From NCBI GenBank assembly GCA_963674945.2, contig CAXXWQ010000001.1:256001-320000 (forward strand): a stretch of DNA of 64,000 nucleotides, read 5' to 3'. Position 1 is the stretch's first letter. Each line of letters begins with the position of its first letter. The notes below the pieces were generated by a model that was not told where the DNA came from, ran no database searches, and saw only the letters and a list, made by a program, of their open reading frames with translations. The translations under genes and the position numbers were made by a program. Source of the DNA: an uncultured Desulfosarcina sp. GTDB lineage: Bacteria; Desulfobacterota; Desulfobacteria; Desulfobacterales; Desulfosarcinaceae. Below are positions 23,958 to 36,405 of the stretch, in pieces.

Positions 23958-24437
23958 TTATCGAAGCGTCTTGTTCAGGTCTTCGATTTTGTCCGTTTCG
24001 TTGTAGATGCCGGCGACCACGGTATACGGTGTACCCTCGACCTTGAGGGTGAAACTGACTTTGCGTGACGGTTCGGTCTCGCCCGGTTTGGGCCATTGAT
24101 ATTCGACCCACTTCCCTCCGGGGGTGTTGCCGGCAGCGCAAAGTTCTTCGTTGAAGGGGAATTTGTTCAGATCGACCCCCTTTAATTTATCCATGGCAAA
24201 GGGATGCGCCATCATCTGGCTGGGACAGTTCTGTACGAAGACGTAGGTGTCCTTATATACGAATTCACCTTTCGGGTCGTTGAATGCATCAAAAGAATCT
24301 TCCCCCAACGCCTTTACCACCTCGTATGCCTTTATCACCAATTCGTACACGTCTTCCGGGGTTGCCTTGCTTTCATCGGCGTATACCGGGGAAACGGAAA
24401 ACAGAATTATCATAGCCATCAAAAAAATGTTTTTCAT
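23958..24437 (-). CDS. Stand-alone periplasmic single-Cache domain protein
   Basis: GGAGG RBS, signal peptide, FNDPKGEFVYKDTYVFV...AHP...WVEYQWPKPG...K. Confidence 0.85.
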   Translation of the reverse strand: MKNIFLMAMIILFSVSPVYADESKATPEDVYELVIKAYEVVKALGEDSFDAFNDPKGEFVYKDTYVFVQNCPSQMMAHPFAMDKLKGVDLNKFPFNEELCAAGNTPGGKWVEYQWPKPGETEPSRKVSFTLKVEGTPYTVVAGIYNETDKIEDLNKTLR

Positions 24438-24525
24438 GAACACCTCCAAATCAGCGTAGTCGATTCGACTACCGCACACGAATAAAAAATTGAACAATAA
24501 TTACTTTTTTACTAACCGTTACTAA

Positions 24526-24552
24526 TTTTCGGACTATCCGATAGGATCTTTA
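24526..24552 (-). promoter_or_regulatory. Sigma28 (FliA)-type promoter for the Cache/MCP operon
   Basis: Minus strand reads TAAA-N15-TCCGAAAA (consensus TAAA-N15-GCCGATAA), upstream of chemotaxis genes. Confidence 0.6.
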
Positions 24553-24676
24553 GATCGGACAATAAAAAAGGGGAGGGGATTGAAAAAATCCGGAATAACA
24601 TGTCCCTCCGGGCAAGAGGAGACGTCGCAGGAAAGGTCTCGCCGAATGTATTTCAGAACTTGTCGCTCTGAACCGG

Positions 24677-25540
24677 TCACTGCTTTTTCGTGGAATTGAT
24701 CTTTTCATAGCGGCGACGCCCGATTTCCCGGGCCGCCTGGACATCCTGGCGGCATGCCTCTGCCTTGCGACCGGCCCAGTACATTGCCTCTTCCAGGTTC
24801 TTGCCGTATACGCCGCACCACATCAGGCCGGACATGGCGCCGGCACCGGCAGGATTGATGCAAAGGGAGGTAAGAAATGCGGTTTTGGCCTCCCGATAGC
24901 GCCGGTTGCGATAACACGCCCAGCCGTGGAGATCATGGGCCATGAAGGATTCCGGTGCGACGTCACATGCCTTTTCAAAGGGGAAAATGGCCAAGGATCC
25001 CTTCGCACCATAGGCGGAGAACAGATAAAATGCCTCCAACGCCCGCCCCACGGCATCCAGGCCAGCCTGGCCGATTCTTTCCGGCCAGAGGGCGGCGTTG
25101 ATCTGATTCGGCGTCATCGGACAATCCGTGGCATCGAGCATCTTTATGAATCCGAGACGAAAACCGACCAACCCATCTTCCATGGAGATGGAAATGTCAA
25201 CGGGACCATGGGTGTTATCCCTCCTCCTGGCGTCAAAAAAAGAAAGGGCCGCCGTATCATCGGCAAAGGTGCCACGGATCCAGAAACGAATCTTCTGGGT
25301 ACCGCTGATCCGGGTGAGGTCGAGATCGATCGCCGCATTACGGCAATATTTCTCAAACCGCTGTTTTTGGGGAAAGATTTTCTCGACCCGCCAACCAAAC
25401 CACATTTCTTTCAGTCCACTGTGCAGCACCAGGACGTTTCCCAGCAAAAAGTGGAGGGCAAGGCCGCTTCCCGTAAACGGATGTGAACCCTTCGGTTGAA
25501 AGGGGAGAACGATGCATTGATCGAAGGGAGTTGATGTCAT
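24677..25540 (-). CDS. Hypothetical protein with C-terminal TPR-like helices
   Basis: AAGGA RBS; AHDLHGWACYRNRRYREAKTAFLTSLCINP is TPR-like. Confidence 0.7.
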   Translation of the reverse strand: MTSTPFDQCIVLPFQPKGSHPFTGSGLALHFLLGNVLVLHSGLKEMWFGWRVEKIFPQKQRFEKYCRNAAIDLDLTRISGTQKIRFWIRGTFADDTAALSFFDARRRDNTHGPVDISISMEDGLVGFRLGFIKMLDATDCPMTPNQINAALWPERIGQAGLDAVGRALEAFYLFSAYGAKGSLAIFPFEKACDVAPESFMAHDLHGWACYRNRRYREAKTAFLTSLCINPAGAGAMSGLMWCGVYGKNLEEAMYWAGRKAEACRQDVQAAREIGRRRYEKINSTKKQ

Positions 25541-25690
25541 TGCAGATTCCTTTATGGGAATTTGGATCGTCGGATCGTCCAAAAGGCGGGGACACTGAAA
25601 ACGGATACCACATTTTGGTGCCATGCGCCATCGGTGCTTTTTCCCGTTGGTCGATTGCATCCGCCAACACTTTGTTTTATAAAAATATCC

Positions 25691-27253
25691 ATGAACACCC
25701 TATTCTTGGATAAGGATCGGCTCTCCATCGAGGAACTGGTGGACGTGGCCCGTTTCAACCGAAAGGTCGCCGTCTCCGCCGATGGAGAAAATCGCGTGGC
25801 CCGCACCAGTGCACTGATCGAGCGATGGGTCAAGGAGAAGCGCGTCATTTACGGCATCACCACCGGCTTCGGCGCGCTTTGCAACGTGACCATCTCTGCC
25901 AGGGATGCCCGGCGGCTGCAGGAGAATATCCTGATGAGCCATGCCGCGGGCACGGGGAATCCCCTGCCTGTACCGGTGGTTCGGGCGATCATGGCCTTGC
26001 GGATTCACGATCTGTGCATGGGGTATTCCGGTTGCCGCATGGAAACCATCCGATATCTGGTGGATCTGCTCAACCATCAGGTGACGCCCGTAGTGCCGGA
26101 AAAGGGGTCGGTGGGGGCCAGCGGCGATCTGGCGCCAACGGCGCATCTGGGACTGGTTCTCATCGGCAAGGGTGAGGCCTTCCAACGTGGACGGCGCATA
26201 TCCGGTACCGAGGCCCTCGACGGAATCGGGCGTCCTCCCGCAAAACTTGCTCCAGGAGAGGGGTTGGCACTGATCAACGGTACCCAGGTGATGACGGCCA
26301 TCGGTGCCCTCGTGGTCCACGATGCCGTTCGGCTTTCCAAAATTTCGGATATTGCCTGCGCCATGACCCTGGAGGTACTCATGGGGTCCAACAGCGAGTT
26401 CGACCCCCGCATCCACCAGATCCGCCCCCACCCGGGGCAGATCGTGACGGCGGACAACATGCTTCGCCTTACGGCCGACAGCCAGATCATCCATTCTCAC
26501 GAGGGGTGTGCCCGGGTTCAGGATGCCTATACCCTGCGTTGCTCTCCACAGATACACGGCGCCAGCAAGGATGCGGTGGCACATTGTCGCCGGGTGATCG
26601 ACATCGAACTCAATTCCACCACCACCAATCCGCTGATTTTTGCCGATACCGAAGAGGTACGCCTGGGAGGGAATTTCCATGGCCAGCCCGTTGCCATGGC
26701 CGCCGATTACCTTTCCATGGGATTGGCCGAGTTGGGCAGCGTCTCGGAACGGCGCATCGAGCGCATGGTCAATCCGCAGCTGAGTGAACTTCCCGCATTC
26801 CTCATCAACCAGGGCGGTATCAATTCCGGCTATATGATCGGCCAATACGCCGCTGCCGCACTGGTATCGGAAAACAAAGTGCTGTCCCATCCGGCCTGCG
26901 TGGACTCCATTCCCACCTCTGCCAACAAGGAAGACCATGTCAGCATGGGCACCATTGCCATTCGTCAAAGCGCTGAAATTCTATCGAATGTGGAAAATAT
27001 TATCGCCATGGAGTTGCTTTGCGCGGCACAGGCCTTTGATTTGCTCACCGAGATCCGACCCCTTACCGCAGGTAAAGGGACCCGTGCGGCGTACACTGTG
27101 ATTCGTCGGCATGTGCCGTACATGGACCGCGATCGGGAATTATACAGGGACATGGAGACCATGGTAACCGTGCTGCGATCCAATGAAATCCTCGATGCGG
27201 TGGAAGAGATGGTGGGACCGATACGTCTGGAGGCGCACATTAAAGATCGGTAA
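25691..27253 (+). CDS. hutH: Histidine ammonia-lyase
   Basis: YGITTGFG, ILMSHAAG (SH specificity pair), ASG MIO motif, LINGTQ, QDAYTLRC, GGNFHG and EDHVSMG. Confidence 0.93.
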   Translation: MNTLFLDKDRLSIEELVDVARFNRKVAVSADGENRVARTSALIERWVKEKRVIYGITTGFGALCNVTISARDARRLQENILMSHAAGTGNPLPVPVVRAIMALRIHDLCMGYSGCRMETIRYLVDLLNHQVTPVVPEKGSVGASGDLAPTAHLGLVLIGKGEAFQRGRRISGTEALDGIGRPPAKLAPGEGLALINGTQVMTAIGALVVHDAVRLSKISDIACAMTLEVLMGSNSEFDPRIHQIRPHPGQIVTADNMLRLTADSQIIHSHEGCARVQDAYTLRCSPQIHGASKDAVAHCRRVIDIELNSTTTNPLIFADTEEVRLGGNFHGQPVAMAADYLSMGLAELGSVSERRIERMVNPQLSELPAFLINQGGINSGYMIGQYAAAALVSENKVLSHPACVDSIPTSANKEDHVSMGTIAIRQSAEILSNVENIIAMELLCAAQAFDLLTEIRPLTAGKGTRAAYTVIRRHVPYMDRDRELYRDMETMVTVLRSNEILDAVEEMVGPIRLEAHIKDR

Positions 27254-27463
27254 CCCAATACCCGATAAGGACTCTCGGTTACGAAACGGTTGAATTGCCC
27301 CAGATGGCTTGTGCGCAGGTCTGTATACTAACATATTGACCCGTACCACCTTGATTGTTATGGGTAAATAACGAATTTTTATGGGCGCCGGCCTTGTCAC
27401 GGAAAAAGGGGACCGTTTCGATCCACGCATGCGAATCCATCTTCAGGATGAGATGAACAAAAT

Positions 27464-29257
27464 ATGGAAGATACCGATCAATCACCGTTCATTATTTCCG
27501 ACGATCCACCCAAATCCGAGAATGTCGGGGAGGGGGTTCCCAACCGATATGCCATCAAGGATCAGGGGGCGGATCGTATGCTCACCTGCAGAGATACCCC
27601 GAACTTGCAGGTCCTCATCAAACAAGGGCTCACATTCACCGCTTCCGCCGCCAAAAAATCCTCTCCGGGGACGATCTATCTGGACGGCGTCGCACAGGTT
27701 GAACCGTTTCTGGATCATGAGAAACAGGTGTACAACCTGGACCACCACGAAGGTTGTGTCCGTTCTTTCACGATGGCAACCTGCGAACAGGCATTGATTA
27801 TATGCTTGAAGGGATTGGATCTTCGAGACAGGGAGTGGAAGATTTTTGCCAACGAACCCGATCTGGATACGATCCTGTCCATCTGGATACTTCTGAATCA
27901 TCAGCGTGTCAACAACCGCGAAGCAATCAACCGTCGTTCCCTGTTCGCCCTGGTCCGATTGGAAGGCGTTATCGATGCCATAGGCCTCGAATTCAAGGAG
28001 GTCAGCGGTTTTCCCGAAGATCTTCTCAAGAAATTGATGCGGCTTATCGATCATCTTCGCAGCGAGGAGCTGGCACTGAAAAAAGCCGGCGAATGGTCCA
28101 AGGCCGATTTCCCTGAATATACGATCCGTGTGCTGAGAAAACTGGATCAGTATCTGATTAAATCCGGAGAGTTGGATGACTTCAAGGGGGTAGAGGAGCT
28201 TGCACGGATCGAACTTACCAACAACCGTATTGCCGTGGTGGTGGCTTCGGATTTGGGCATCTATGAGTTGGAACCCCACCTGGGCAAGTTGTACGGCAAT
28301 CGACTGGGATGGGTGGCGCTGCGTCGGGATGAAAACAACTACACATTGCGGCAGGTGGACATGTTCATGGCGGTCAACCTGGACGATGTGTATCAGCGGT
28401 TGAACTTCATGGACCCGGCGGTCAAGGGGCGCACGGAAGGCGCTCGCTGGGGTGGTTCCGGTGACATCGGCGGATCTCCCAGGGATATCGGTACGGGGCT
28501 GTCGCCCCAGGAAATCGTTTCGGCATGCCGGGACGCCATCGAAAAACGAAGTGACATTCGCCACATCAAGCGGTTTCTGGCCAGTACCGCAGTCACCATG
28601 TTGATCGTCATCGCTGCCATCGCCACCGGACAGAACTGGCAACCGGAGAACTGGTTCGGCCTGACGATCCTCAGTAGGTGTGCGCAGAGTACTCTTTTCG
28701 GGTTCCACACGGCGCTATTGGTGTTCACCCTGTTGATGCTCTTGGTGGTGGCCTTTCACCGTCCCTGGCAATTCGGCCTCATGCTTCCCGCCGGCAAAGA
28801 CTGGAGGCGGTTGCTGCCTTTTGCCGTCGTCTGCGGATTGACCGGGGATCTGCTGACACCCGGCTATGAAATGTTCGTTCACGATTCGAACATGGCCTGG
28901 ATGCTTGCCCTGCTCCTCATACCCGCCAGCCTGGAGTTATTGTTCCGTGGGTTGGTCCATGGCATGATGGCGCAACTGGCGACGATACAGGACAGTGAGA
29001 GCCGGTGGTTTTTTTCCGGGCCGACCATCGGTTCTTCCATTTTGTACGGCATCACCATGGGGCTCCAGATGACGATGATGTCCGGCGATCCGCTGTCCGT
29101 CTTGACCAGCGCCGCACTGATCAAATACACGGTGGTGGCCATCATCTTCGGCCTCGGTGCCGGTATGATCCGGGAACGCTCCCACAGTCTCTTTCCGGCG
29201 CTGTTATTTCACGCCATGGCCGTCGCCACTTCCTTGCTGGTCTACGGCCCGGCTTAA
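27464..29257 (+). CDS. Fusion of a cytoplasmic DHH-like domain and a C-terminal degenerate CPBP/Abi intramembrane domain
   Basis: N-terminal YLDG...LDHHEG...EPDLD...WGGSGDIGGSPR; C-terminal multi-TM region with LELLFRG...RERSHSLFPALLFHA. Confidence 0.7.
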   Translation: MEDTDQSPFIISDDPPKSENVGEGVPNRYAIKDQGADRMLTCRDTPNLQVLIKQGLTFTASAAKKSSPGTIYLDGVAQVEPFLDHEKQVYNLDHHEGCVRSFTMATCEQALIICLKGLDLRDREWKIFANEPDLDTILSIWILLNHQRVNNREAINRRSLFALVRLEGVIDAIGLEFKEVSGFPEDLLKKLMRLIDHLRSEELALKKAGEWSKADFPEYTIRVLRKLDQYLIKSGELDDFKGVEELARIELTNNRIAVVVASDLGIYELEPHLGKLYGNRLGWVALRRDENNYTLRQVDMFMAVNLDDVYQRLNFMDPAVKGRTEGARWGGSGDIGGSPRDIGTGLSPQEIVSACRDAIEKRSDIRHIKRFLASTAVTMLIVIAAIATGQNWQPENWFGLTILSRCAQSTLFGFHTALLVFTLLMLLVVAFHRPWQFGLMLPAGKDWRRLLPFAVVCGLTGDLLTPGYEMFVHDSNMAWMLALLLIPASLELLFRGLVHGMMAQLATIQDSESRWFFSGPTIGSSILYGITMGLQMTMMSGDPLSVLTSAALIKYTVVAIIFGLGAGMIRERSHSLFPALLFHAMAVATSLLVYGPA

Positions 29258-29261
29258 CAAT

Positions 29262-30875
29262 TTATTTTCCCACCGAATAGAATTCATTATGAAGTCCCTT
29301 GGTGGCCACCGCAAATCGTCCCGCGATGCACACCGCCGCCATGGCCGCGGTGCCTTGAATCATTTCGGGAAGGGAGATCTGCCGGTTGAAATCACCCAAA
29401 TGGGGTCCGCTGGTGATGAGGATATCTCTTTCTCCACGATGCAATCCCTTGATTTGCCGTTCGTCATATCCCCGCGTCTTCAAAAAAGCGGAAAATTCTT
29501 CGTCGGTTAACGCGTTCTGGTCGGTTCGGCGCAACAATTCTGTCATGTACCGGTCGACGCCCATCTCTTCGATCATGCGATCGGCGAGTCGATTAAGGTC
29601 CACAGGAGGCCTGGGAACGGTTGTTGTTTCCACGAACCCCTCATAGTAGCCGGTAAATATTTCCCGGATCATCTTTTTCAAGGTGTCCCGATCGAAAAGC
29701 CCCCTGGCATCCACGGGATTCCCCTTTTCATCGATTCCCGCGCGGGACCTGTCCCGACATCGGAAGTGACTGCCGGCAACCAGCAGCAGACTGAAAAAAT
29801 GCGTACACACATGGCGGTAGAGGTTACGGCCATGGTCGCATATGGTCGCAAGATGCTCGAAGTCCCGAAGGCCGGAGAGGCCGAAGTTAGGGAAATCACA
29901 CGATTCCAACCATTGATCCAGTCTTCCGGCACGAAACCATTGGTAACGCCCCTGGTCTTCGCGGCGCAATCGTTGGGTGCGGTTGTGAAACAAGGGGATG
30001 GGGGCGTCGTGGATGATCCCTCTGGCGGCAAGCCGTCCCAATAGAAAGGCACTTCTTCTCAGTATCTCCTTGGCAAAGGGTGTCTTCATCAAAGGATCAT
30101 TGGGGTAGACGAAATAGTCCCTGTGGGCCAAGAACCCGATGGCCAATCTTTCCGGGTGCAGTGCACTCTCCATGGGAGGGCGGATCGGAAGACGGGTGAT
30201 GCAAAAAACCATGCGGTTCTGGATTCGTATGGGGGTGGGGATGTCGAACCGGCAATCGACTGTGAAATCGGGCTTTTTGAGCATTTCCATCCATCGGATC
30301 TCGTTGGCCAGGGCAGAGATTGGTTCCGATTGCTTCGCCAGTTTGATGACCAGTACCCGGTTGGATTGCGGTATCGACGCCACCAGGCTTCGCCCCACAT
30401 AACGTGGGTTATCAGCCGAAACGAGCCCATTTGCTTTTATGAGACGCTCCCAGGAGATCGTAGGGTGCGAAGAGATGGGACCGATCGTGAGGCGTGGCCC
30501 CGTGATTCGAACCGGCAGGCTGCCCAGCGCCTCGGCGATGCCCCGATGTGCGCTGCCGTCCGTTTGCCGGAGCAGTTCGACCAACGAGGCAAGTGCTGTG
30601 GCTCCCAATCCGTCGGTCTCCGGGGAGACTGCAAGATCGGTCAGAATCTTCGCCACCTCACGGAAAAGAAAATAGGACTGGCGTGCGTTTTCATGGTCGT
30701 TTGACACCAACAGTCGCGCCGCGGTTTCGACGGTCCGTTCATCCATGACGCCCGGATGCTTTTGTGCCAATCGACGAAGGTCGGCCACGGCGTGGTATGT
30801 CGCGATAAAATCGAAACTGGGATCAAGCAGGGCCGATAGGGCCTGCTTTTTCAGGGTGTGTGCATAAGTGGGCAT
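29262..30875 (-). CDS. SidJ-related pseudokinase
   Basis: Kinase-like N-lobe LVIKL...NEIRWM, then PLFHNR...RREDQGRYQW..AGRLDQW..SCDFPNFGLSGLRDFEH, recognised as the SidJ-homologue signature. Confidence 0.75.
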   Translation of the reverse strand: MPTYAHTLKKQALSALLDPSFDFIATYHAVADLRRLAQKHPGVMDERTVETAARLLVSNDHENARQSYFLFREVAKILTDLAVSPETDGLGATALASLVELLRQTDGSAHRGIAEALGSLPVRITGPRLTIGPISSHPTISWERLIKANGLVSADNPRYVGRSLVASIPQSNRVLVIKLAKQSEPISALANEIRWMEMLKKPDFTVDCRFDIPTPIRIQNRMVFCITRLPIRPPMESALHPERLAIGFLAHRDYFVYPNDPLMKTPFAKEILRRSAFLLGRLAARGIIHDAPIPLFHNRTQRLRREDQGRYQWFRAGRLDQWLESCDFPNFGLSGLRDFEHLATICDHGRNLYRHVCTHFFSLLLVAGSHFRCRDRSRAGIDEKGNPVDARGLFDRDTLKKMIREIFTGYYEGFVETTTVPRPPVDLNRLADRMIEEMGVDRYMTELLRRTDQNALTDEEFSAFLKTRGYDERQIKGLHRGERDILITSGPHLGDFNRQISLPEMIQGTAAMAAVCIAGRFAVATKGLHNEFYSVGK

Positions 30876-30884
30876 ACAATCAAT

Positions 30885-31009
30885 GACGGCTCCGTAAAAA
30901 GTCCGATATCTGCGTTACGCTTCACCCCTCGTCACTGTAACGTATCCAACCATACGCCTCATTCCTCGGGGTTCGCAATCCTTGATCTCGAACTTTTTAC
31001 GAAGCCGTC
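30885..31009. repeat. REP/MITE-like intergenic element (family A)
   Basis: 18-bp terminal inverted repeats GACGGCTCCGTAAAAAGT/ACTTTTTACGAAGCCGTC. Internal sequence is shared with 49872-49961 and 16282-16324. Confidence 0.8.
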
Positions 31010-31078
31010 CAGAAGATGCACTTTTACGAGTTCATCAATCATTGGTTCAAACAGGAGAGACAGCACCGGAAAAGGCAC

Positions 31079-31720
31079 CTACAGCTTCAGAATCTCTCTC
31101 ATTTCCATTAGATGGTCGATATGGTGATCGGCCGCAAGGTCTTTGTTCCGGTATGCCACGAACACAACCCTGGCACCGGCGGCCGCCATTTCATCCACTT
31201 GAGAGTCACCCACGTAGACCATCTGTTCGGGTGAGATGGAAAAGTGTTCGATGATTTTTTCCAGGGCCTCGGGATGCGGTTTGGGAAATTGGACATCCCG
31301 GGCGGTAACCACAAGGTCGAACAGGTGTCCGATTTTGTTGTCGGACAGAACGCGCTCCATGGTATCGGTCCGGTTGGTGGCAACCGCCGTCTTCAGTCTT
31401 GGCCGAAGGGTCTCCAACAGAGGGACCAGTCCCGGCTCCATCTCCATGTATTGCAAAAATGGCAGATAGCCGACCTGCTTGCGGTATTCATGTGCCAGTG
31501 CACGGGTCGTTTCTTCGGGAAAGAGCCGGGTCAGCACCTCATCCACGGTATGCATGTGGGCATAGGACAGTTGATCCGGCGTCATGGCCGGTTTCCCGAA
31601 ATGTTCCAGCAGATGATTGTAATACGCTTTGTTGGCCTTGCGGGACTCGAACATTACGCCGTCACAATCAAGGGCGACGACTTTCATTTTACCGTCCAAG
31701 TTTCCAGCTTTACTACCCAT
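31079..31720 (-). CDS. HAD-superfamily hydrolase (phosphoglycolate phosphatase-like)
   Basis: LDCDGVM, ATN, KPHPE and YVGDS..D. The start overlaps the upstream stop. Confidence 0.9.
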   Translation of the reverse strand: MGSKAGNLDGKMKVVALDCDGVMFESRKANKAYYNHLLEHFGKPAMTPDQLSYAHMHTVDEVLTRLFPEETTRALAHEYRKQVGYLPFLQYMEMEPGLVPLLETLRPRLKTAVATNRTDTMERVLSDNKIGHLFDLVVTARDVQFPKPHPEALEKIIEHFSISPEQMVYVGDSQVDEMAAAGARVVFVAYRNKDLAADHHIDHLMEMREILKL

Positions 31721-32513
31721 TACCGTCGCCTTTTTGGGGCATCCAAGATCCCTGTTGGTTTGCTTTTGGGATGATCTGCCCGTATACCGGAACACGGATG
31801 GTCGGTTTGATTTTGCTGTCCGTGGTCAAAAAGATCGTGTCCGCATAGCGACCGGCCTCGGTCTTTTTATTCTTGATGGTGAGGACATACCCTTCGGCGT
31901 CCCTCCTGGTGAAGGGGGTCAGATCGAATTCGATATCCTTCCCGTTTCTCGCCTTGGCCGAAAGAATCTTGAACGGGTAGTTCTTTTCCAGCGTGATGGT
32001 GATCGTTTTCTCGACTTCGCTTCCCGCCGGACCGACCAGCCGGGCATACTTGTAATCCATTTTTAAAAATTCGATTACCTTGCCGCTGACAGACAGGGCG
32101 ATTTGGCCATTGGTCTTGTCATCGGTGAAAACGTGGATCTGTTTATTCAGCGTTCTGCCACCATAGCCGCTGGTGTTTACCTTGATGGTGATGGTTCCCT
32201 CGCCACCGGCGGGGATCTGCCTCGGGTAGGAGGCGGCCGAGCACCCTCAACCGGTTTTGACGCGGGTGATGGCCAGGGGGCCATCGCCCGTGTTCTTAAT
32301 CGAAAAATCGTGGCTGATCTGGGTGCCGTCCACCACCGGGTCGAAAACGAATTTCGGTTCCGGTATGATTGCCTTGGGTGCTTTGGCGATTTCCTCTATG
32401 GCGGGGGCTTTTGCGGCGATGTGCTCATTTTCCGCCGCCGCTATAATGCCGTACGTGCACCCCAGCAACGCGATCACCGTCGCGATTAGAACAATATAGG
32501 GCCTCATTGTCAT
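31713..32513 (-). CDS. DUF1573-type Ig-fold exported protein with an in-frame UGA (probable selenocysteine) at 32247-32249
   Basis: Track ORFs 32247..32513 and 31713..32060 are in the same frame, with only the TGA between them. Readthrough gives FSIKNTGDGPLAITRVKTG-U-GCSAASYPRQIPAGGEGTITIKVNT, aligning to the DUF1573 V.xSCGCT motif. Confidence 0.85.
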
Positions 32514-32642
32514 TTTCTCCTGTTATCGATTGTGTCGAACTTCGTGGCGCCAGATCGGTGCCCGTCCTTCGACAATGGTCTTACAGACCTTTCATCGGCC
32601 TAACAGACCTATCTCTTAAGGACAGCTTGGGTCTATGTCAAG

Positions 32643-35084
32643 CTACATTAGAAAAAACGGGTCCACGTCGACGGCCACCCTGACCTGCCCACCGGTGGAC
32701 CGGCTTTGTTTTTCTTCAAATACCCGGCGAAAGAAGCCCCGAAGGGTGCCGACATCCGGGCTCATGACCAGAATCTGCCATCGATAGTGGTTGGCAATGC
32801 GTGCCAGTGGTGCTTCGATGGGGCCCATGACCTTGATTCTGTTTCGGTTCGGGGCCATGGCTCCCTTCAGCTCACGGAAGCGCTCGCCCAGTCCATGGGC
32901 ATGCCCTGCGGTCTGCTCGGGATTTTTACCCGAGATGCGAACTGCCACCATGCGGGTAAACGGCGGATATCCCAGCATCCGTCGAAAACCGATCTCTTCT
33001 TTAAAAAAGTCCATGAAATTCTGCTTCTTCGCCGAGAGGATGGAAAAGTGGTTCGGGTTGTAGGTCTGAAGGATCACCTTCCCCGGACGTTTTCCCCGCC
33101 CCGCCCGACCGGCCACCTGCGCCAGAAGCTGGAAGGTCCGCTCTCCGGAACGGAAATCGGGGAAGTTCAAGGTCAGGTCGGCGCAGATGATGCCCACCAG
33201 CGTGATGCCCGAAAAGTCGTGACCCTTGGCCACCATTTGTGTGCCCACGAGGATGTCGATTCGTCTCTGTTTCAGATCCTTTAACAGTTTTACCATCGAT
33301 CCTTTGCGGGCCATGGTGTCCTTGTCCATGCGGGCCACCCGGGCACCGGGAAACAGATTTTCCAGCGCTTCCTGGATTTTTTCGGTCCCCACACCCAACA
33401 ACCTGATTTTGTCGGAACCGCAAGACGGGCAATTGGAAGAGGCGGCCCTTGTAAATCCGCAATAATGACAAAGAAATGCGTTGATCCGCTTGTGCAGGGT
33501 CAAGGAGATGTCACAATTTTTACACCGGATGGGATTGCCGCAGTGGCCACAGACGGGAGATGCTGAAAATCCCCTTCGATTCAGAAATATCAGGGCCTGA
33601 TCGCCCTTGGCCAGAGTTTCGCGGATGGCCGTTTTCAAAGGAGGCGTGATGAACCGGTCGATTCCGCGATCATCGCGGCTTTGGGACAGATCAACGGTTT
33701 GTATGGCCGGCAGCGGGTGGCGGTTGATGCGTTGTGTAAGATGTATTGATTTATACTTTCCAACGGTTACATTGTGCCAGGACTGGACCGATGGCGTGGC
33801 CGATCCCAACACCACCAGGGCATCGTGGTGACGGGCCAAGACGACGGCCAGGTCCCGGGCATTATAATGGAGTCCCCCTTCCTGTTTGTAGGAAGGGTCG
33901 TGTTCCTCGTCCACGACGATCAGGCCGAGGTCGTCGAAGGGCGCGAAAATGGAAGATCGAACCCCTACGGCGATGCGTGCTTCCCCTTTTGCGATGCGTT
34001 GCCATTGATCGTATCGCTCTCCTTTGGAAAGGCCGCTGTGGAGAACGGCCACCGTTTCTCCGAACCGGGCACGGAAGCGACGTTCGGTCTGGGAAATGAG
34101 GGCGATTTCCGGCACCAATACCAACACCCGCAGGTCTTTGTTCATGGCTGTTTCTGCAAGTCGCAGATAAACCTCTGTTTTCCCGCTGCCGGTAACCCCG
34201 GCCAAAAGGACCGTTTCAAACCCTTTTCCCAAAAGATGCGCCATGGTGTCAACGGCAACGCACTGCTCATCGGTGAGCGTCGGCGGCGTGTCCGGCGCGA
34301 TGGGGTCACCGAAGGGATCGCGGCAAACGATTGTTTCATGGACGGTAACCTGGCCGGCCTTTTCCATGGCACGAACCAGTGCCGGGGCCGTATGGATGTT
34401 TTCCGACAGGGAGGCAACACTGAGATCGCCCTCGGTCTTCAGTCGATCCAGGATGGTCTGGCGTTTCGCACTGAGGCGGCCGATGATGGGTTCGTCGGTG
34501 CGGGCCGATACCATTTTTACGGTCTTCGGTCGGATCTGACGTTCCCTGATCCGTCTCTCCATCCGTATCCAGCCTTTTTTTTGCATTCGATGCAAGAGCA
34601 CCCGTGAAACGGGTTGGCCCATGGCCTTTTTCAACTGCCCGATGGAGGAGGGCGTCCTGACAAGGGCGTCGAGAACGCGCTTTTCAATGGGCGACGGTCC
34701 TTGGGAACCAAGCGCCGTCGTACCACCGTCGTCGATACGGACAACGGCCATATCAGTCAGATTCAAGCCGGCCGGAAGGGCGGTGTGAATCACCATTCCC
34801 AAGGGATGCATATAGTAGTCGGCGATCCATCGGAAAAAGGGGATCATTGCCGCCGGAAAGATGGGGGTATCGTCCAATACGTCCAGGATGTGTCGGAGCT
34901 GTGGAAGATCCGTTTGATCTCCCGGTCCCAACAGGTATCCGGTGACGGTCCGTTTTCCGAACGGAACCAATACCCTTTTCCCTGCGATGGCCTGGTGTAC
35001 CAGGTGGTCCGGAACGCTGTAACAATAGGTTTCGTGAAGGGGAAGGGCCACCGCAATAGTTACGATCTGTTCCTTACAACCCAT
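32643..35084 (-). CDS. priA: Primosomal protein N' (replication restart helicase); start uncertain
   Basis: GVTGSGKTEVY, LVPEIAL, DEEHD.SYKQ, GSATPS, four CxxC Zn motifs and QVAGRAGR. Confidence 0.96.
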   Translation of the reverse strand: MGCKEQIVTIAVALPLHETYCYSVPDHLVHQAIAGKRVLVPFGKRTVTGYLLGPGDQTDLPQLRHILDVLDDTPIFPAAMIPFFRWIADYYMHPLGMVIHTALPAGLNLTDMAVVRIDDGGTTALGSQGPSPIEKRVLDALVRTPSSIGQLKKAMGQPVSRVLLHRMQKKGWIRMERRIRERQIRPKTVKMVSARTDEPIIGRLSAKRQTILDRLKTEGDLSVASLSENIHTAPALVRAMEKAGQVTVHETIVCRDPFGDPIAPDTPPTLTDEQCVAVDTMAHLLGKGFETVLLAGVTGSGKTEVYLRLAETAMNKDLRVLVLVPEIALISQTERRFRARFGETVAVLHSGLSKGERYDQWQRIAKGEARIAVGVRSSIFAPFDDLGLIVVDEEHDPSYKQEGGLHYNARDLAVVLARHHDALVVLGSATPSVQSWHNVTVGKYKSIHLTQRINRHPLPAIQTVDLSQSRDDRGIDRFITPPLKTAIRETLAKGDQALIFLNRRGFSASPVCGHCGNPIRCKNCDISLTLHKRINAFLCHYCGFTRAASSNCPSCGSDKIRLLGVGTEKIQEALENLFPGARVARMDKDTMARKGSMVKLLKDLKQRRIDILVGTQMVAKGHDFSGITLVGIICADLTLNFPDFRSGERTFQLLAQVAGRAGRGKRPGKVILQTYNPNHFSILSAKKQNFMDFFKEEIGFRRMLGYPPFTRMVAVRISGKNPEQTAGHAHGLGERFRELKGAMAPNRNRIKVMGPIEAPLARIANHYRWQILVMSPDVGTLRGFFRRVFEEKQSRSTGGQVRVAVDVDPFFLM

Positions 35085-35398
35085 TTTGCCGTAGTTGTCA
35101 TTGGGGACGCCAGCCATTGGATTCCAGATATCGGTGCTTTTGGACCGCTTTTTACTTTTCAATGGGTTGTACACTCAGGTGGAAGGGGTACAGCCGGATG
35201 ATGGCAGCCGAAATAACAATATAATATAGCCCCAGGTGGTTGTGGTTTCAACCCTGCATTTTTGCCTTTCTCCTTCAAATACGGTTACCCTGATTGCGAA
35301 CGGCTGCAATACCTGATACAAAGAAAAGAAGAAACATCCGCTACGGGCGGTTTATATCTGTCGGAAATTATCCATATACAAATCGATGGAGGTGTAAG

Positions 35399-35701
35399 AT
35401 GCGCAGCAATCATTGTAAAGGCCTTTTCATTTTCATGGTCGCCTTTGCGTTTTTGTCGGTTCCTTGCACGAGTGCACTTGCCCAGAGCCTGGAACAGGAC
35501 AGTGATATCATTGCGGGAAAGATGACAGGTGATGCACTGATTCTCAGACCATTGAGCCTCGCAGCAACCGTGGTTGGCAGTGCCGTCTTTATCGTGTCCC
35601 TGCCGTTTTCCGCCTTGGGGAGAAATACCGGTTCCGCATTCGACTTCCTGGTGGCCGACCCGTTTCTGTTTACGTTCAGTCGGCCCCTGGGCGAGTTCTA
35701 A
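35399..35701 (+). CDS. Small exported or membrane hypothetical protein
   Basis: GGAGG RBS, signal peptide, DALILRPLSLAATVVG...FTFSRPLG. Confidence 0.75.
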   Translation: MRSNHCKGLFIFMVAFAFLSVPCTSALAQSLEQDSDIIAGKMTGDALILRPLSLAATVVGSAVFIVSLPFSALGRNTGSAFDFLVADPFLFTFSRPLGEF

Positions 35702-35778
35702 CCGTCCGAATCACTTTTTTCCAAATTATTCGTATTCATGGACCGGTGTGATCCGCCGGCAGCAAGCAGGAGGTCTGC

Positions 35779-36405
35779 GTGCCCGTACATTTAGTGAAAC
35801 ACCCGTTGATCCGGCATAAGCTCGGACTCATGCGCATGCACGATGTGTCCATCAAACAGTTCAGAGAGCTTGCCAACGAACTGGCCACGCTGCTCACCTA
35901 TGAGGCGACCAAAGATCTGGAAACGGAAACCATAACCATCCAGGGCTGGGCGGGAGATGTGGTCGTCGAAAACATCAAGGGAAAGAAGATTACCGTGGTG
36001 CCGATATTGCGTGCCGGTCTCGGGATGATGGACGGCGTGTTGAATCTCATCCCCTCCGCCCGGGTAAGTGTCGTGGGGCTGTACCGCAACGAAGAGACCC
36101 TGGAGCCGGTGCGATATTACGTGAAGATGACCAGCAATATCAAAGAGCGGATTGCCTTGATACTGGATCCCATGCTGGCAACGGGCGGAACCCTGGTCGC
36201 CACCATCGATCTGCTCAAGGAAGCCGGTTGCCGGCAGATCCGGGGCCTGTTTCTCGTTGCCGCACCCGAAGGACTGGAACGTTTGAAAAAGGCCCATCCG
36301 GACGTGGATGTGTACGTCGCGGCAATCGATGAAAAACTAAACGATATCGGATACATTATTCCGGGGCTGGGCGACGCGGGCGATAAGATCTTCGGTACCA
36401 AGTAA
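35779..36405 (+). CDS. upp: Uracil phosphoribosyltransferase
   Basis: [18 protein letters not shown] and [11 protein letters not shown]. Confidence 0.96.

What the first reader, a model, noticed from the sequence alone, without database searches (positions are those of the whole stretch)
29262..30875. SidJ-related pseudokinase in a free-living anaerobe, within a housekeeping gene run
Seen: helical N-terminal repeats, VIKL...NE N-lobe, and FHNR / RxDxGxYxW / GRLDxW / PNxGxSGLRD motifs with no canonical HRD or DFG. Known: Legionella SidJ is a kinase-fold protein glutamylase activated by host calmodulin, and distant homologues exist outside Legionella with substrates unknown to me. Inference: an endogenous, host-independent protein-glutamylation or similar ligase system, since there is no signal peptide or secretion context and it follows priA, the UGA-containing DUF1573 gene and the HAD gene.
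Basis: partly seen in the sequence, partly recalled or inferred. Interest (0 to 1): 0.72.

Follow-up and report, generated by a model that had tools for sequence, protein, structure and literature searches.

The report
Host-free SidJ-type glutamate ligase candidate
This sulfate-reducing bacterium carries a single, well-conserved gene for a compact relative of the Legionella enzyme SidJ that keeps the residues of both active pockets but lacks the part that binds host calmodulin, so it likely uses ATP to attach glutamate to a still unknown target of its own cell; the family is already named in NCBI, but I found no paper that tests its activity.

Summary
Confirmed. It is a full-length member of the existing NCBIfam family NF033874 'SidJ-related pseudokinase' (620 bits, cut-off 300) and fails the SidJ effector model (31 vs 400). 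Its predicted structure (pLDDT 95) matches SidJ (Z 25, 440 residues) and stops before SidJ's calmodulin-binding helix. Twelve SidJ catalytic positions of both pockets are kept in 116 of 122 relatives (median identity 38%), including the arginine that binds donor glutamate. Best reading: a cytoplasmic, calmodulin-independent ATP-to-AMP amide ligase, likely a glutamylase; substrate unidentified. It occurs once per genome in 24 of 31 genus and 76 of 251 order genomes. The priA/selenoprotein/HAD neighbourhood holds only in the Desulfosarcina lineage (8 of 80 loci), so it names no partner. RimK and RimB co-occurrence tests failed. Papers from 2019 and 2021 already flag such homologues as untested, and this scan met the family before on other DNA (e1-7437673). 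Known family, open function.

The parts
29262..30875 (-). Gene for the 537-aa SidJ-related kinase-fold protein (P0001), NCBIfam NF033874
   Evidence: single copy in the genome
30522..30872 (-). N-terminal helical-repeat domain (residues 2-118, HEAT/armadillo-like); sits where SidJ has its substrate-selecting N-terminal domain; docking role inferred
   Evidence: model helices; Z 9.9 to a designed armadillo repeat over residues 6-121; longer relatives carry Pfam HEAT repeats
30123..30404 (-). Kinase N-lobe (residues 158-251) with R162, K178, E192 = SidJ R352, K367, E381
   Evidence: alignment; conservation 122, 121 and 122 of 122
29886..30011 (-). Catalytic loop with the long insertion that forms the second ('migrated') pocket (residues 289-330): H297, R305, Y311, R318, F328, N330 = SidJ H492, R500, Y506, R522, Y532, N534; nine residues shorter than in SidJ
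29853..29864 (-). Metal-binding motif D338-F-E-H341 (D338 = SidJ D542, the DFG aspartate)
29385..29408 (-). Invariant C-terminal motif G490-P-H-L-G-x-F496-N497; F496-N497 placed on SidJ Y732-N733 of the second pocket (inferred from a constant offset)
   Evidence: conservation; offset 236 at four range ends; Y732/N733 role from PMC8548325 passages
31079..31687 (-). Upstream HAD-family hydrolase gene, 203 bases before the start; neighbour only in the Desulfosarcina lineage, not shown to be a partner
31713..32513 (-). Upstream DUF1573 / OS_HP2 gene with one in-frame TGA (codon 89), likely selenocysteine; positional neighbour only
32643..35174 (-). priA; positional neighbour only

Best explanation
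The gene encodes a single-copy kinase-fold protein of the SidJ-related family, predicted to be cytoplasmic, that likely works as a calmodulin-independent glutamate ligase on a carboxyl group of one of the cell's own proteins. Inferred mechanism, by residue-for-residue analogy with SidJ: the kinase-like pocket (R162, K178, E192, Y257, F328, N330, D338 plus Mg) binds ATP in the flipped orientation, releases pyrophosphate and adenylates an acceptor carboxylate. The acyl-adenylate is held in the second pocket (H297, R305, Y311, N497). R318 with R305 positions free glutamate, whose amino group attacks, giving an amide bond and AMP. The N-terminal helical repeats would select the acceptor. Shown here: gene, family, fold, conservation of the residues, loss of the calmodulin-binding domain, distribution. 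Inferred: catalysis, the donor, the nature of the acceptor. Not found: the acceptor and any activator.
For: Fold: Foldseek E 5.1e-15 to SidJ, all hits listed at E<=0.001 are SidJ chains, first ordinary kinase 1.4e-3; VIA Z 25.4, 440 aligned, rmsd 5.1, next unrelated-function hit Z 14.1. Residues: 116 of 122 aligned relatives keep all 12 mapped positions at pairwise identity 29-76%, median 38%; R162, E192, Y257, H297, R305, Y311, R318, N330, D338 are 122 of 122. In SidJ the R318 equivalent is needed for the glutamate step but not for adenylation (Osinski preprint, text parts 2-3), so its invariance argues for the complete two-step reaction with an acidic donor. Host independence: the model ends at SidJ residue 773, before the IQ helix centred at I841; relatives have a median of 10 and at most 37 residues after position 521; an IQ-like pattern lies in the last 60 residues of only 3 of 122. 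Endogenous role: one copy in G000, 24 of 31 genus genomes with no stop inside, nested among Desulfosarcina orthologues (SH-aLRT 100, quick tree), dN/dS 0.14-0.26.
Against: No activity was measured, here or in the papers found (searches). The loop between Y311 and R318 is nine residues shorter than in SidJ (spacing 7 in 121 of 122), and the family has invariant residues that are not among SidJ's described catalytic set (R299, Q301, R304, W313, R337, H341, D441, E446, R449, H492), so donor or acceptor may differ. SidJ K370, a proposed AMP relay (PMC8548325 passages), is Lys in only 16 of 122. No partner gene travels with it. Co-occurrence with the known bacterial glutamylation genes was not found (RimK held-out 4 of 17 vs 47 of 172, p 1.0; RimB 13 of 47, p 0.73). 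The 122 sequences were chosen by similarity to the query, which favours conservation. The rmsd of 4-5 angstrom shows that parts, above all the N-terminal domain, differ.
Confidence: 0.5

Rival explanations
1. Same adenylate chemistry, but the acceptor is a small molecule or cofactor with a carboxyl group, or the donor is an amine other than glutamate: a metabolic amide ligase on a kinase fold.
For: The invariant set extends well beyond SidJ's catalytic residues and is rich in Arg and His around the second pocket, as expected for one fixed ligand; the pocket loop is nine residues shorter; the N-terminal domain is only moderately conserved (0.23-0.51 per 20-residue block vs 0.70-0.79 in the core); the gene sits singly among unrelated metabolic genes.
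Against: No biosynthetic gene travels with it in 100 loci; helical repeats are usually protein-binding (general knowledge); the only characterised relatives act on proteins.
Confidence: 0.25
2. It stops after the first step and is a protein AMP-transferase in the manner of SelO, or an ATP pyrophosphatase.
For: SidJ binds ATP in a SelO-like orientation and self-AMPylates; SelO is a fold neighbour at Z 9.1.
Against: R318, whose SidJ equivalent serves only the glutamate step, is invariant (122 of 122), as is the rest of the second pocket; similarity to SidJ (Z 25) far exceeds that to SelO.
Confidence: 0.1
3. It is a dead scaffold or nucleotide sensor, or an ordinary phosphotransferase.
For: Poxvirus E2, an inactivated SidJ-fold protein, is the next fold hit (Z 14.1), so the fold can lose activity; the HRD histidine and a DFE motif are kept.
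Against: Catalytic residues of both pockets are invariant and under strong selection; the catalytic-base position is Ala in 116 of 122 (Asp in 3), which argues against phosphotransfer.
Confidence: 0.07
4. It is an exported effector or an antitoxin-like regulator of a toxin or effector, as SidJ is for the SidE ligases.
For: SidJ's role; distant long forms occur inside giant multidomain proteins and beside restriction-modification genes in one genus.
Against: No type VI sheath gene in G000 (control rang in E. coli); the only injectisome-like match is flagellar FlhA; no plasmid, phage or viral match; single copy and steady inheritance within genera. Dot/Icm and SidE-type searches were negative but had no positive control.
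Confidence: 0.05
5. It forms a functional unit with the upstream HAD hydrolase or selenoprotein.
For: Same strand and order in 8 of 8 Desulfosarcina-like loci and one sister genus.
Against: 0 of the other 72 loci and 19 hold any of the three genes (59 of the 80 have over 1.5 kb upstream); the 203-base gap is not conserved; the selenoprotein is in 75 of 78 order genomes regardless; other lineages put other genes in this place, such as a deacetylase, transketolase or an inositol monophosphatase.
Confidence: 0.03

Closest known systems
NCBIfam NF033874 'SidJ-related pseudokinase' (hypothetical equivalog; annotated in Desulfosarcina, Desulfonema and other Desulfobacterota)
   Same: Full-length match, 620 bits against a cut-off of 300; 57-65% identity to named Desulfosarcina proteins, several of them carrying this family name; same length and architecture.
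   Different: Nothing of note: this is an ordinary member. The family has a name but no tested function in the papers found.
Legionella pneumophila SidJ / SdjA (calmodulin-activated protein glutamylases, NF033873)
   Same: Kinase-like fold with the catalytic-loop insertion (Z 25.4); all 12 mapped residues of the two pockets; no catalytic Asp.
   Different: 537 vs 873 aa; no C-terminal IQ/calmodulin domain; repeat-type N-terminal domain; insertion 9 residues shorter; HRD histidine and a DFE motif kept; K370 not conserved; no SidE-type gene or Dot/Icm marker found in the genome (no positive control); 16-18% structural identity.
SelO AMPylases
   Same: Pseudokinases that use ATP as an AMP donor; fold neighbour at Z 9.1.
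   Different: Far weaker match; SelO gives stable Ser/Thr/Tyr-AMP, while this family keeps SidJ's second pocket with its glutamate-binding arginine.
RimK (ATP-grasp ribosomal protein S6 glutamate ligase) with RimB
   Same: The known endogenous bacterial protein glutamylation route (PMC11957791 passages).
   Different: Unrelated fold; no co-occurrence or exclusion with this family in 250 order genomes.
Poxvirus E2/O1 inactivated SidJ-fold domains
   Same: Shared C-lobe fold (Z 14.1 and 7.3).
   Different: Their catalytic residues are replaced (preprint passage); here they are invariant.

Membership tests
NF033874 SidJ-related pseudokinase | Whole-protein score above the curated cut-off with full profile coverage | tested here: met
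   620.4 bits vs 300; positions 2-506 of 507
SidJ/SdjA effector glutamylases (NF033873) | Whole-protein score above the curated cut-off | tested here: not met
   31.2 bits vs 400
SidJ/SdjA effector glutamylases (NF033873) | Kinase-like fold with a long catalytic-loop insertion forming a second pocket | tested here: met
   Foldseek E 5e-15, VIA Z 25.4; loop spacing 39 residues in 121 of 122 vs the 48-residue insertion in SidJ
SidJ/SdjA effector glutamylases (NF033873) | Kinase-like pocket residues R352, K367, E381, Y452, Y532, N534, D542 | tested here: met
   R162, K178, E192, Y257, F328, N330, D338
SidJ/SdjA effector glutamylases (NF033873) | Second-pocket residues H492, R500, Y506, R522, N733 | tested here: met
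   H297, R305, Y311, R318 by sequence alignment; N497 by constant offset of structural range ends, not by a residue-level alignment
SidJ/SdjA effector glutamylases (NF033873) | C-terminal domain with the calmodulin-binding IQ helix | tested here: not met
   protein ends at SidJ residue 773; IQ helix centred at I841; short tails in all 122
SidJ/SdjA effector glutamylases (NF033873) | Dot/Icm secretion system and SidE-type substrate in the genome | tested here: inconclusive
   PF12293 and PF19048 not found in G000, but no control genome rang
SidJ/SdjA effector glutamylases (NF033873) | ATP-dependent glutamylation of a protein | not testable with these tools
   needs bench assay
Canonical (Hanks-type) protein kinases | Catalytic Asp of HRD | tested here: not met
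   position 291 is Ala in 116, Asp in 3, Ser in 3 of 122
Canonical (Hanks-type) protein kinases | Beta-3 Lys, helix-C Glu, catalytic-loop Asn, DFG Asp | tested here: met
   K178, E192, N330, D338
SelO AMPylases | SelO family profile and fold as best match | tested here: inconclusive
   no Pfam match at E 0.1; SelO at Z 9.1 among ordinary kinases

The most novel reading that the evidence does not exclude
This family is the ancestral, self-sufficient form of kinase-fold glutamylases: a second, RimK-independent protein glutamylation pathway native to about a third of Desulfobacterales, active without any eukaryotic cofactor and aimed at a conserved cellular protein, from which Legionella built SidJ by adding a calmodulin switch and a new docking domain.
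Probability: 0.35. Interest if true: 0.75.

Novelty: new member of a known kind. Interest (0 to 1): 0.4.

Why it matters
What SidJ-fold enzymes do outside Legionella is an explicitly open question (eLife PMC6858067 discussion; Osinski preprint discussion). This 537-aa, predicted soluble, confidently modelled protein without the calmodulin domain is a convenient test case, and close orthologues exist in cultured, fully sequenced Desulfosarcina species. If it glutamylates a host protein, it would reveal a new endogenous bacterial modification in sulfate reducers and show how a kinase fold ligates amino acids without an activator. The gene itself is not a surprise: the family is already named and annotated.

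Tried and rejected
1) Conserved partner gene: ORF clustering over 80 loci and 20 further regions (some repeat genomes of the first set) found only lineage-level synteny. 2) Replacement of RimK: a post-hoc signal in 78 genomes (1 of 29 vs 10 of 49, p 0.046; threshold chosen after seeing the scores) did not replicate in the 172 held-out genomes (4 of 17 RimK holders positive vs 47 of 172; p 1.0). 3) RimB as eraser: 13 of 47 holders positive, base rate 76 of 250, p 0.73. 4) Selenoprotein neighbour as partner: present in 75 of 78 genomes. 5) A built-in calmodulin-like element in residues 440-500: a weak match to a calcium-dependent kinase EF-hand domain (E 0.53) was not backed by fold searches with a model of residues 340-522, whose listed rows held no EF-hand protein; absence from a list does not exclude it. 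6) Mobile elements: no match in plasmids, phages or viral contigs; the viral structure library gave only weak kinase and poxvirus rows. 7) Search for longer fused forms with the alignment found none, although one search shows they exist, so that negative is a sensitivity limit. 9) Promoter scan found no sigma-70-like site on the gene's strand; upstream gap not conserved; no Rfam match in 24000-36000. 10) ESM Atlas gave only unnamed clusters for the family. 11) The tree's phylum labels were unusable because many records are titled only 'Deltaproteobacteria'; only the quick tree finished. 12) No complex prediction was run, as no candidate partner emerged. 13) Black et al. 2019 was not held; the supplement of the Osinski preprint (its figure on homologues) was not seen and may already show members of this family.

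Full report
Observation. The interval is one intact reading frame, 29262..30875 on the minus strand, 537 aa, at the GC content of its surroundings. Orthologues align from residue 1-3, which supports the start. Against the 8 Desulfosarcina-like orthologues, dN/dS is 0.14-0.21, and four closer pairs among them give 0.24-0.26; in residues 286-345 pN is 0.07-0.10 while pS is 0.57-0.79. It is a real, selected gene. Hydropathy shows no signal peptide or membrane helix.

Family. NCBIfam already has a model for it: NF033874 'SidJ-related pseudokinase', 620.4 bits against a cut-off of 300, over positions 2-506 of 507. The Legionella effector model NF033873 scores 31.2 against 400. Pfam has nothing at E 0.1. 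A word-indexed search found 762 relatives among 8000 candidates scored, the best at 57-65% identity from Desulfosarcina, some already carrying the family name; the 50%-cluster library gave 353 at E<=0.001. In a quick tree of 75 rows the protein sits inside a nine-member Desulfosarcina group with SH-aLRT 100. That Desulfosarcina are free-living sulfate-reducing anaerobes is my own knowledge.

Structure. An AlphaFold2 model from 122 sequences has mean pLDDT 95.4 and pTM 0.94: five N-terminal helices (2-118), a kinase N-lobe, and a helical C-lobe. Foldseek ranks SidJ chains first (E 5.1e-15), ordinary kinases from 1.4e-3. VIA-align gives Z 25.4, 440 residues, rmsd 5.1, model 10-537 on SidJ 150-773; next come vaccinia E2 (14.1) and small-molecule or protein kinases (11 or less). 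The protein therefore covers SidJ up to residue 773 and lacks the C-terminal domain whose IQ helix is centred at I841 (eLife section 11). Relatives have a median of 10 residues, at most 37, after position 521.

Active sites. From the printed alignment (chain index plus 95) and the residues named in the papers: R352=R162, K367=K178, E381=E192, Y452=Y257, Q486=A291, H492=H297, R500=R305, Y506=Y311, R522=R318, Y532=F328, N534=N330, D542=D338. N733=N497 is inferred from a constant offset of 236 at four structural range ends, and it puts F496-N497 on SidJ Y732-N733. Of 122 sequences (P0001, six close hits and one more distant hit, and 114 of the 117 sequences of 495-565 aa), 116 keep all 12 positions tested at a median pairwise identity of 38%. 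In SidJ, R522 binds donor glutamate and is dispensable for adenylation (Osinski preprint); here it is invariant. Differences from SidJ: the Y311-R318 loop is nine residues shorter, K370 is Lys in only 16 of 122, the HRD histidine and a D-F-E motif survive, and ten further polar residues are almost or fully invariant. The selection of sequences by similarity inflates conservation somewhat.

Distribution. Over the cut-off in 24 of 31 genus genomes, 76 of 251 order genomes, 15 of 301 phylum genomes, 0 of 14 controls; one copy in G000 and nearly always elsewhere. Presence tends to follow genera (for example 5 of 5, 4 of 4, 3 of 3, and 0 of 7 in others), which fits inheritance with losses; kin are not independent. 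No match in plasmids, phages or viral contigs. In G000 no type VI sheath gene was found, the injectisome-like match is FlhA, and Dot/Icm and SidE-type searches were negative without a positive control.

Neighbourhood. The order priA, selenoprotein gene, HAD gene, this gene holds in 8 of 80 loci, all in the Desulfosarcina group, and in 1 of 20 regions, a sister genus; 59 of the 80 have over 1.5 kb upstream. Elsewhere the neighbours are unrelated: deacetylase, transketolase, inositol monophosphatase, transporters, signalling genes. The selenoprotein gene is in 75 of 78 order genomes regardless. The context marks an inherited chromosomal position and names no substrate.

Substrate search. A possible exclusion with RimK (p 0.046, post hoc) failed on held-out genomes (p 1.0), and RimB showed no association (p 0.73). 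An EF-hand-like resemblance in residues 440-500 (E 0.53) was not supported by fold search. The acceptor and any activator stay unknown.

Mechanism. Most likely the enzyme does what SidJ does, without calmodulin: ATP is split to pyrophosphate, an acceptor carboxylate is adenylated, the acyl-adenylate is held in the second pocket, and glutamate positioned by R318 and R305 displaces AMP. I put about 0.8 on adenylating activity, and 0.5 on the full reading with glutamate as donor and a protein as acceptor; a small-molecule or other-amine ligase gets 0.25, AMP transfer only 0.1, dead or ordinary kinase 0.07, effector-linked 0.05, unit with the upstream genes 0.03. These are judgements, not computed values.

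Literature. Seen: Sulpizio et al., PMC6858067 (passages and section 11) and its preprint 10.1101/738567 (passages), which list homologues from Desulfovibrio hydrothermalis, delta proteobacterium NaphS2 and Methanosaeta, note conserved motifs and call for tests; Osinski et al., 10.1101/2021.04.13.439722 (parts 1-3 of 5 and a passage), which says homologues lack the IQ motif and SidE and probably differ in substrate and activation; Adams et al., PMC8548325 (passages); PMC12599244, PMC8120803, PMC11957791 and 10.1101/2022.11.22.517515 (passages). Black et al. 2019 was not held, and preprint supplements were not seen. Five searches found no test of a non-Legionella homologue; the library lacks most subscription papers.

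Verdict. The value is as a compact, testable entry to an open question. Novelty: new member of a known kind. Interest 0.4.

Noticed in passing
window 31713-32513 (-): DUF1573/OS_HP2 gene reads through one TGA (T-G-U-G-C). Relatives are in 75 of 78 order genomes and most listed best matches hold one in-frame TGA; two tRNA-Sec calls in the genome. The 60 bases from the TGA fold no better than shuffles (z -0.22). Probably a widespread selenoprotein that annotation splits in two.
   Followed up: partly
window 27464-29257 (+): 597-aa gene ending 4 bases from the SidJ-related stop: a soluble N-terminal domain with a D-H-H motif and no Pfam match, fused to a CAAX-protease-like membrane domain. Atlas look-alikes of the N-terminal part are unnamed clusters, many from phages, and DUF6687. 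Not beside the SidJ-related gene in any of 100 other loci.
   Followed up: partly
L101:6779-10285, L102:6097-9597, L103:41-2854: A second, longer SidJ-fold type (937-1168 aa open frames) in three genomes of one genus, followed by mutS2 and near restriction-modification genes. It has an extra insertion before the G-R-L motif like SidJ itself, so it looks intermediate between the short family and SidJ.
   Followed up: partly
P0233, P0258, P0266, P0268, P0193, P0243: The domain also occurs inside proteins of 633-2502 aa, variously with HEAT or TPR repeats, a methyltransferase, an M23 peptidase or a radical SAM domain.
   Followed up: no
L059, L083, L085, L093, L111, L112: A histone-deacetylase-fold gene lies directly upstream in the Desulfacinum/Desulfosoma group and one unrelated locus; L111 appears to repeat L083. 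Same arrangement as earlier finding e1-7437673.
   Followed up: partly
G367:C40, G370:C118, G466:C194: Short C-terminal pieces of the gene (profile positions 466-507; one with a stop) in genomes without a full copy suggest recent losses.
   Followed up: no
window 24677-25540 (-) and 25691-27253 (+): A 287-aa ORF without Pfam or NCBIfam match, divergent from a histidine ammonia-lyase gene; in other Desulfosarcina a different block (potassium channel, prfB, lnt and others) follows the SidJ-related gene.
   Followed up: no
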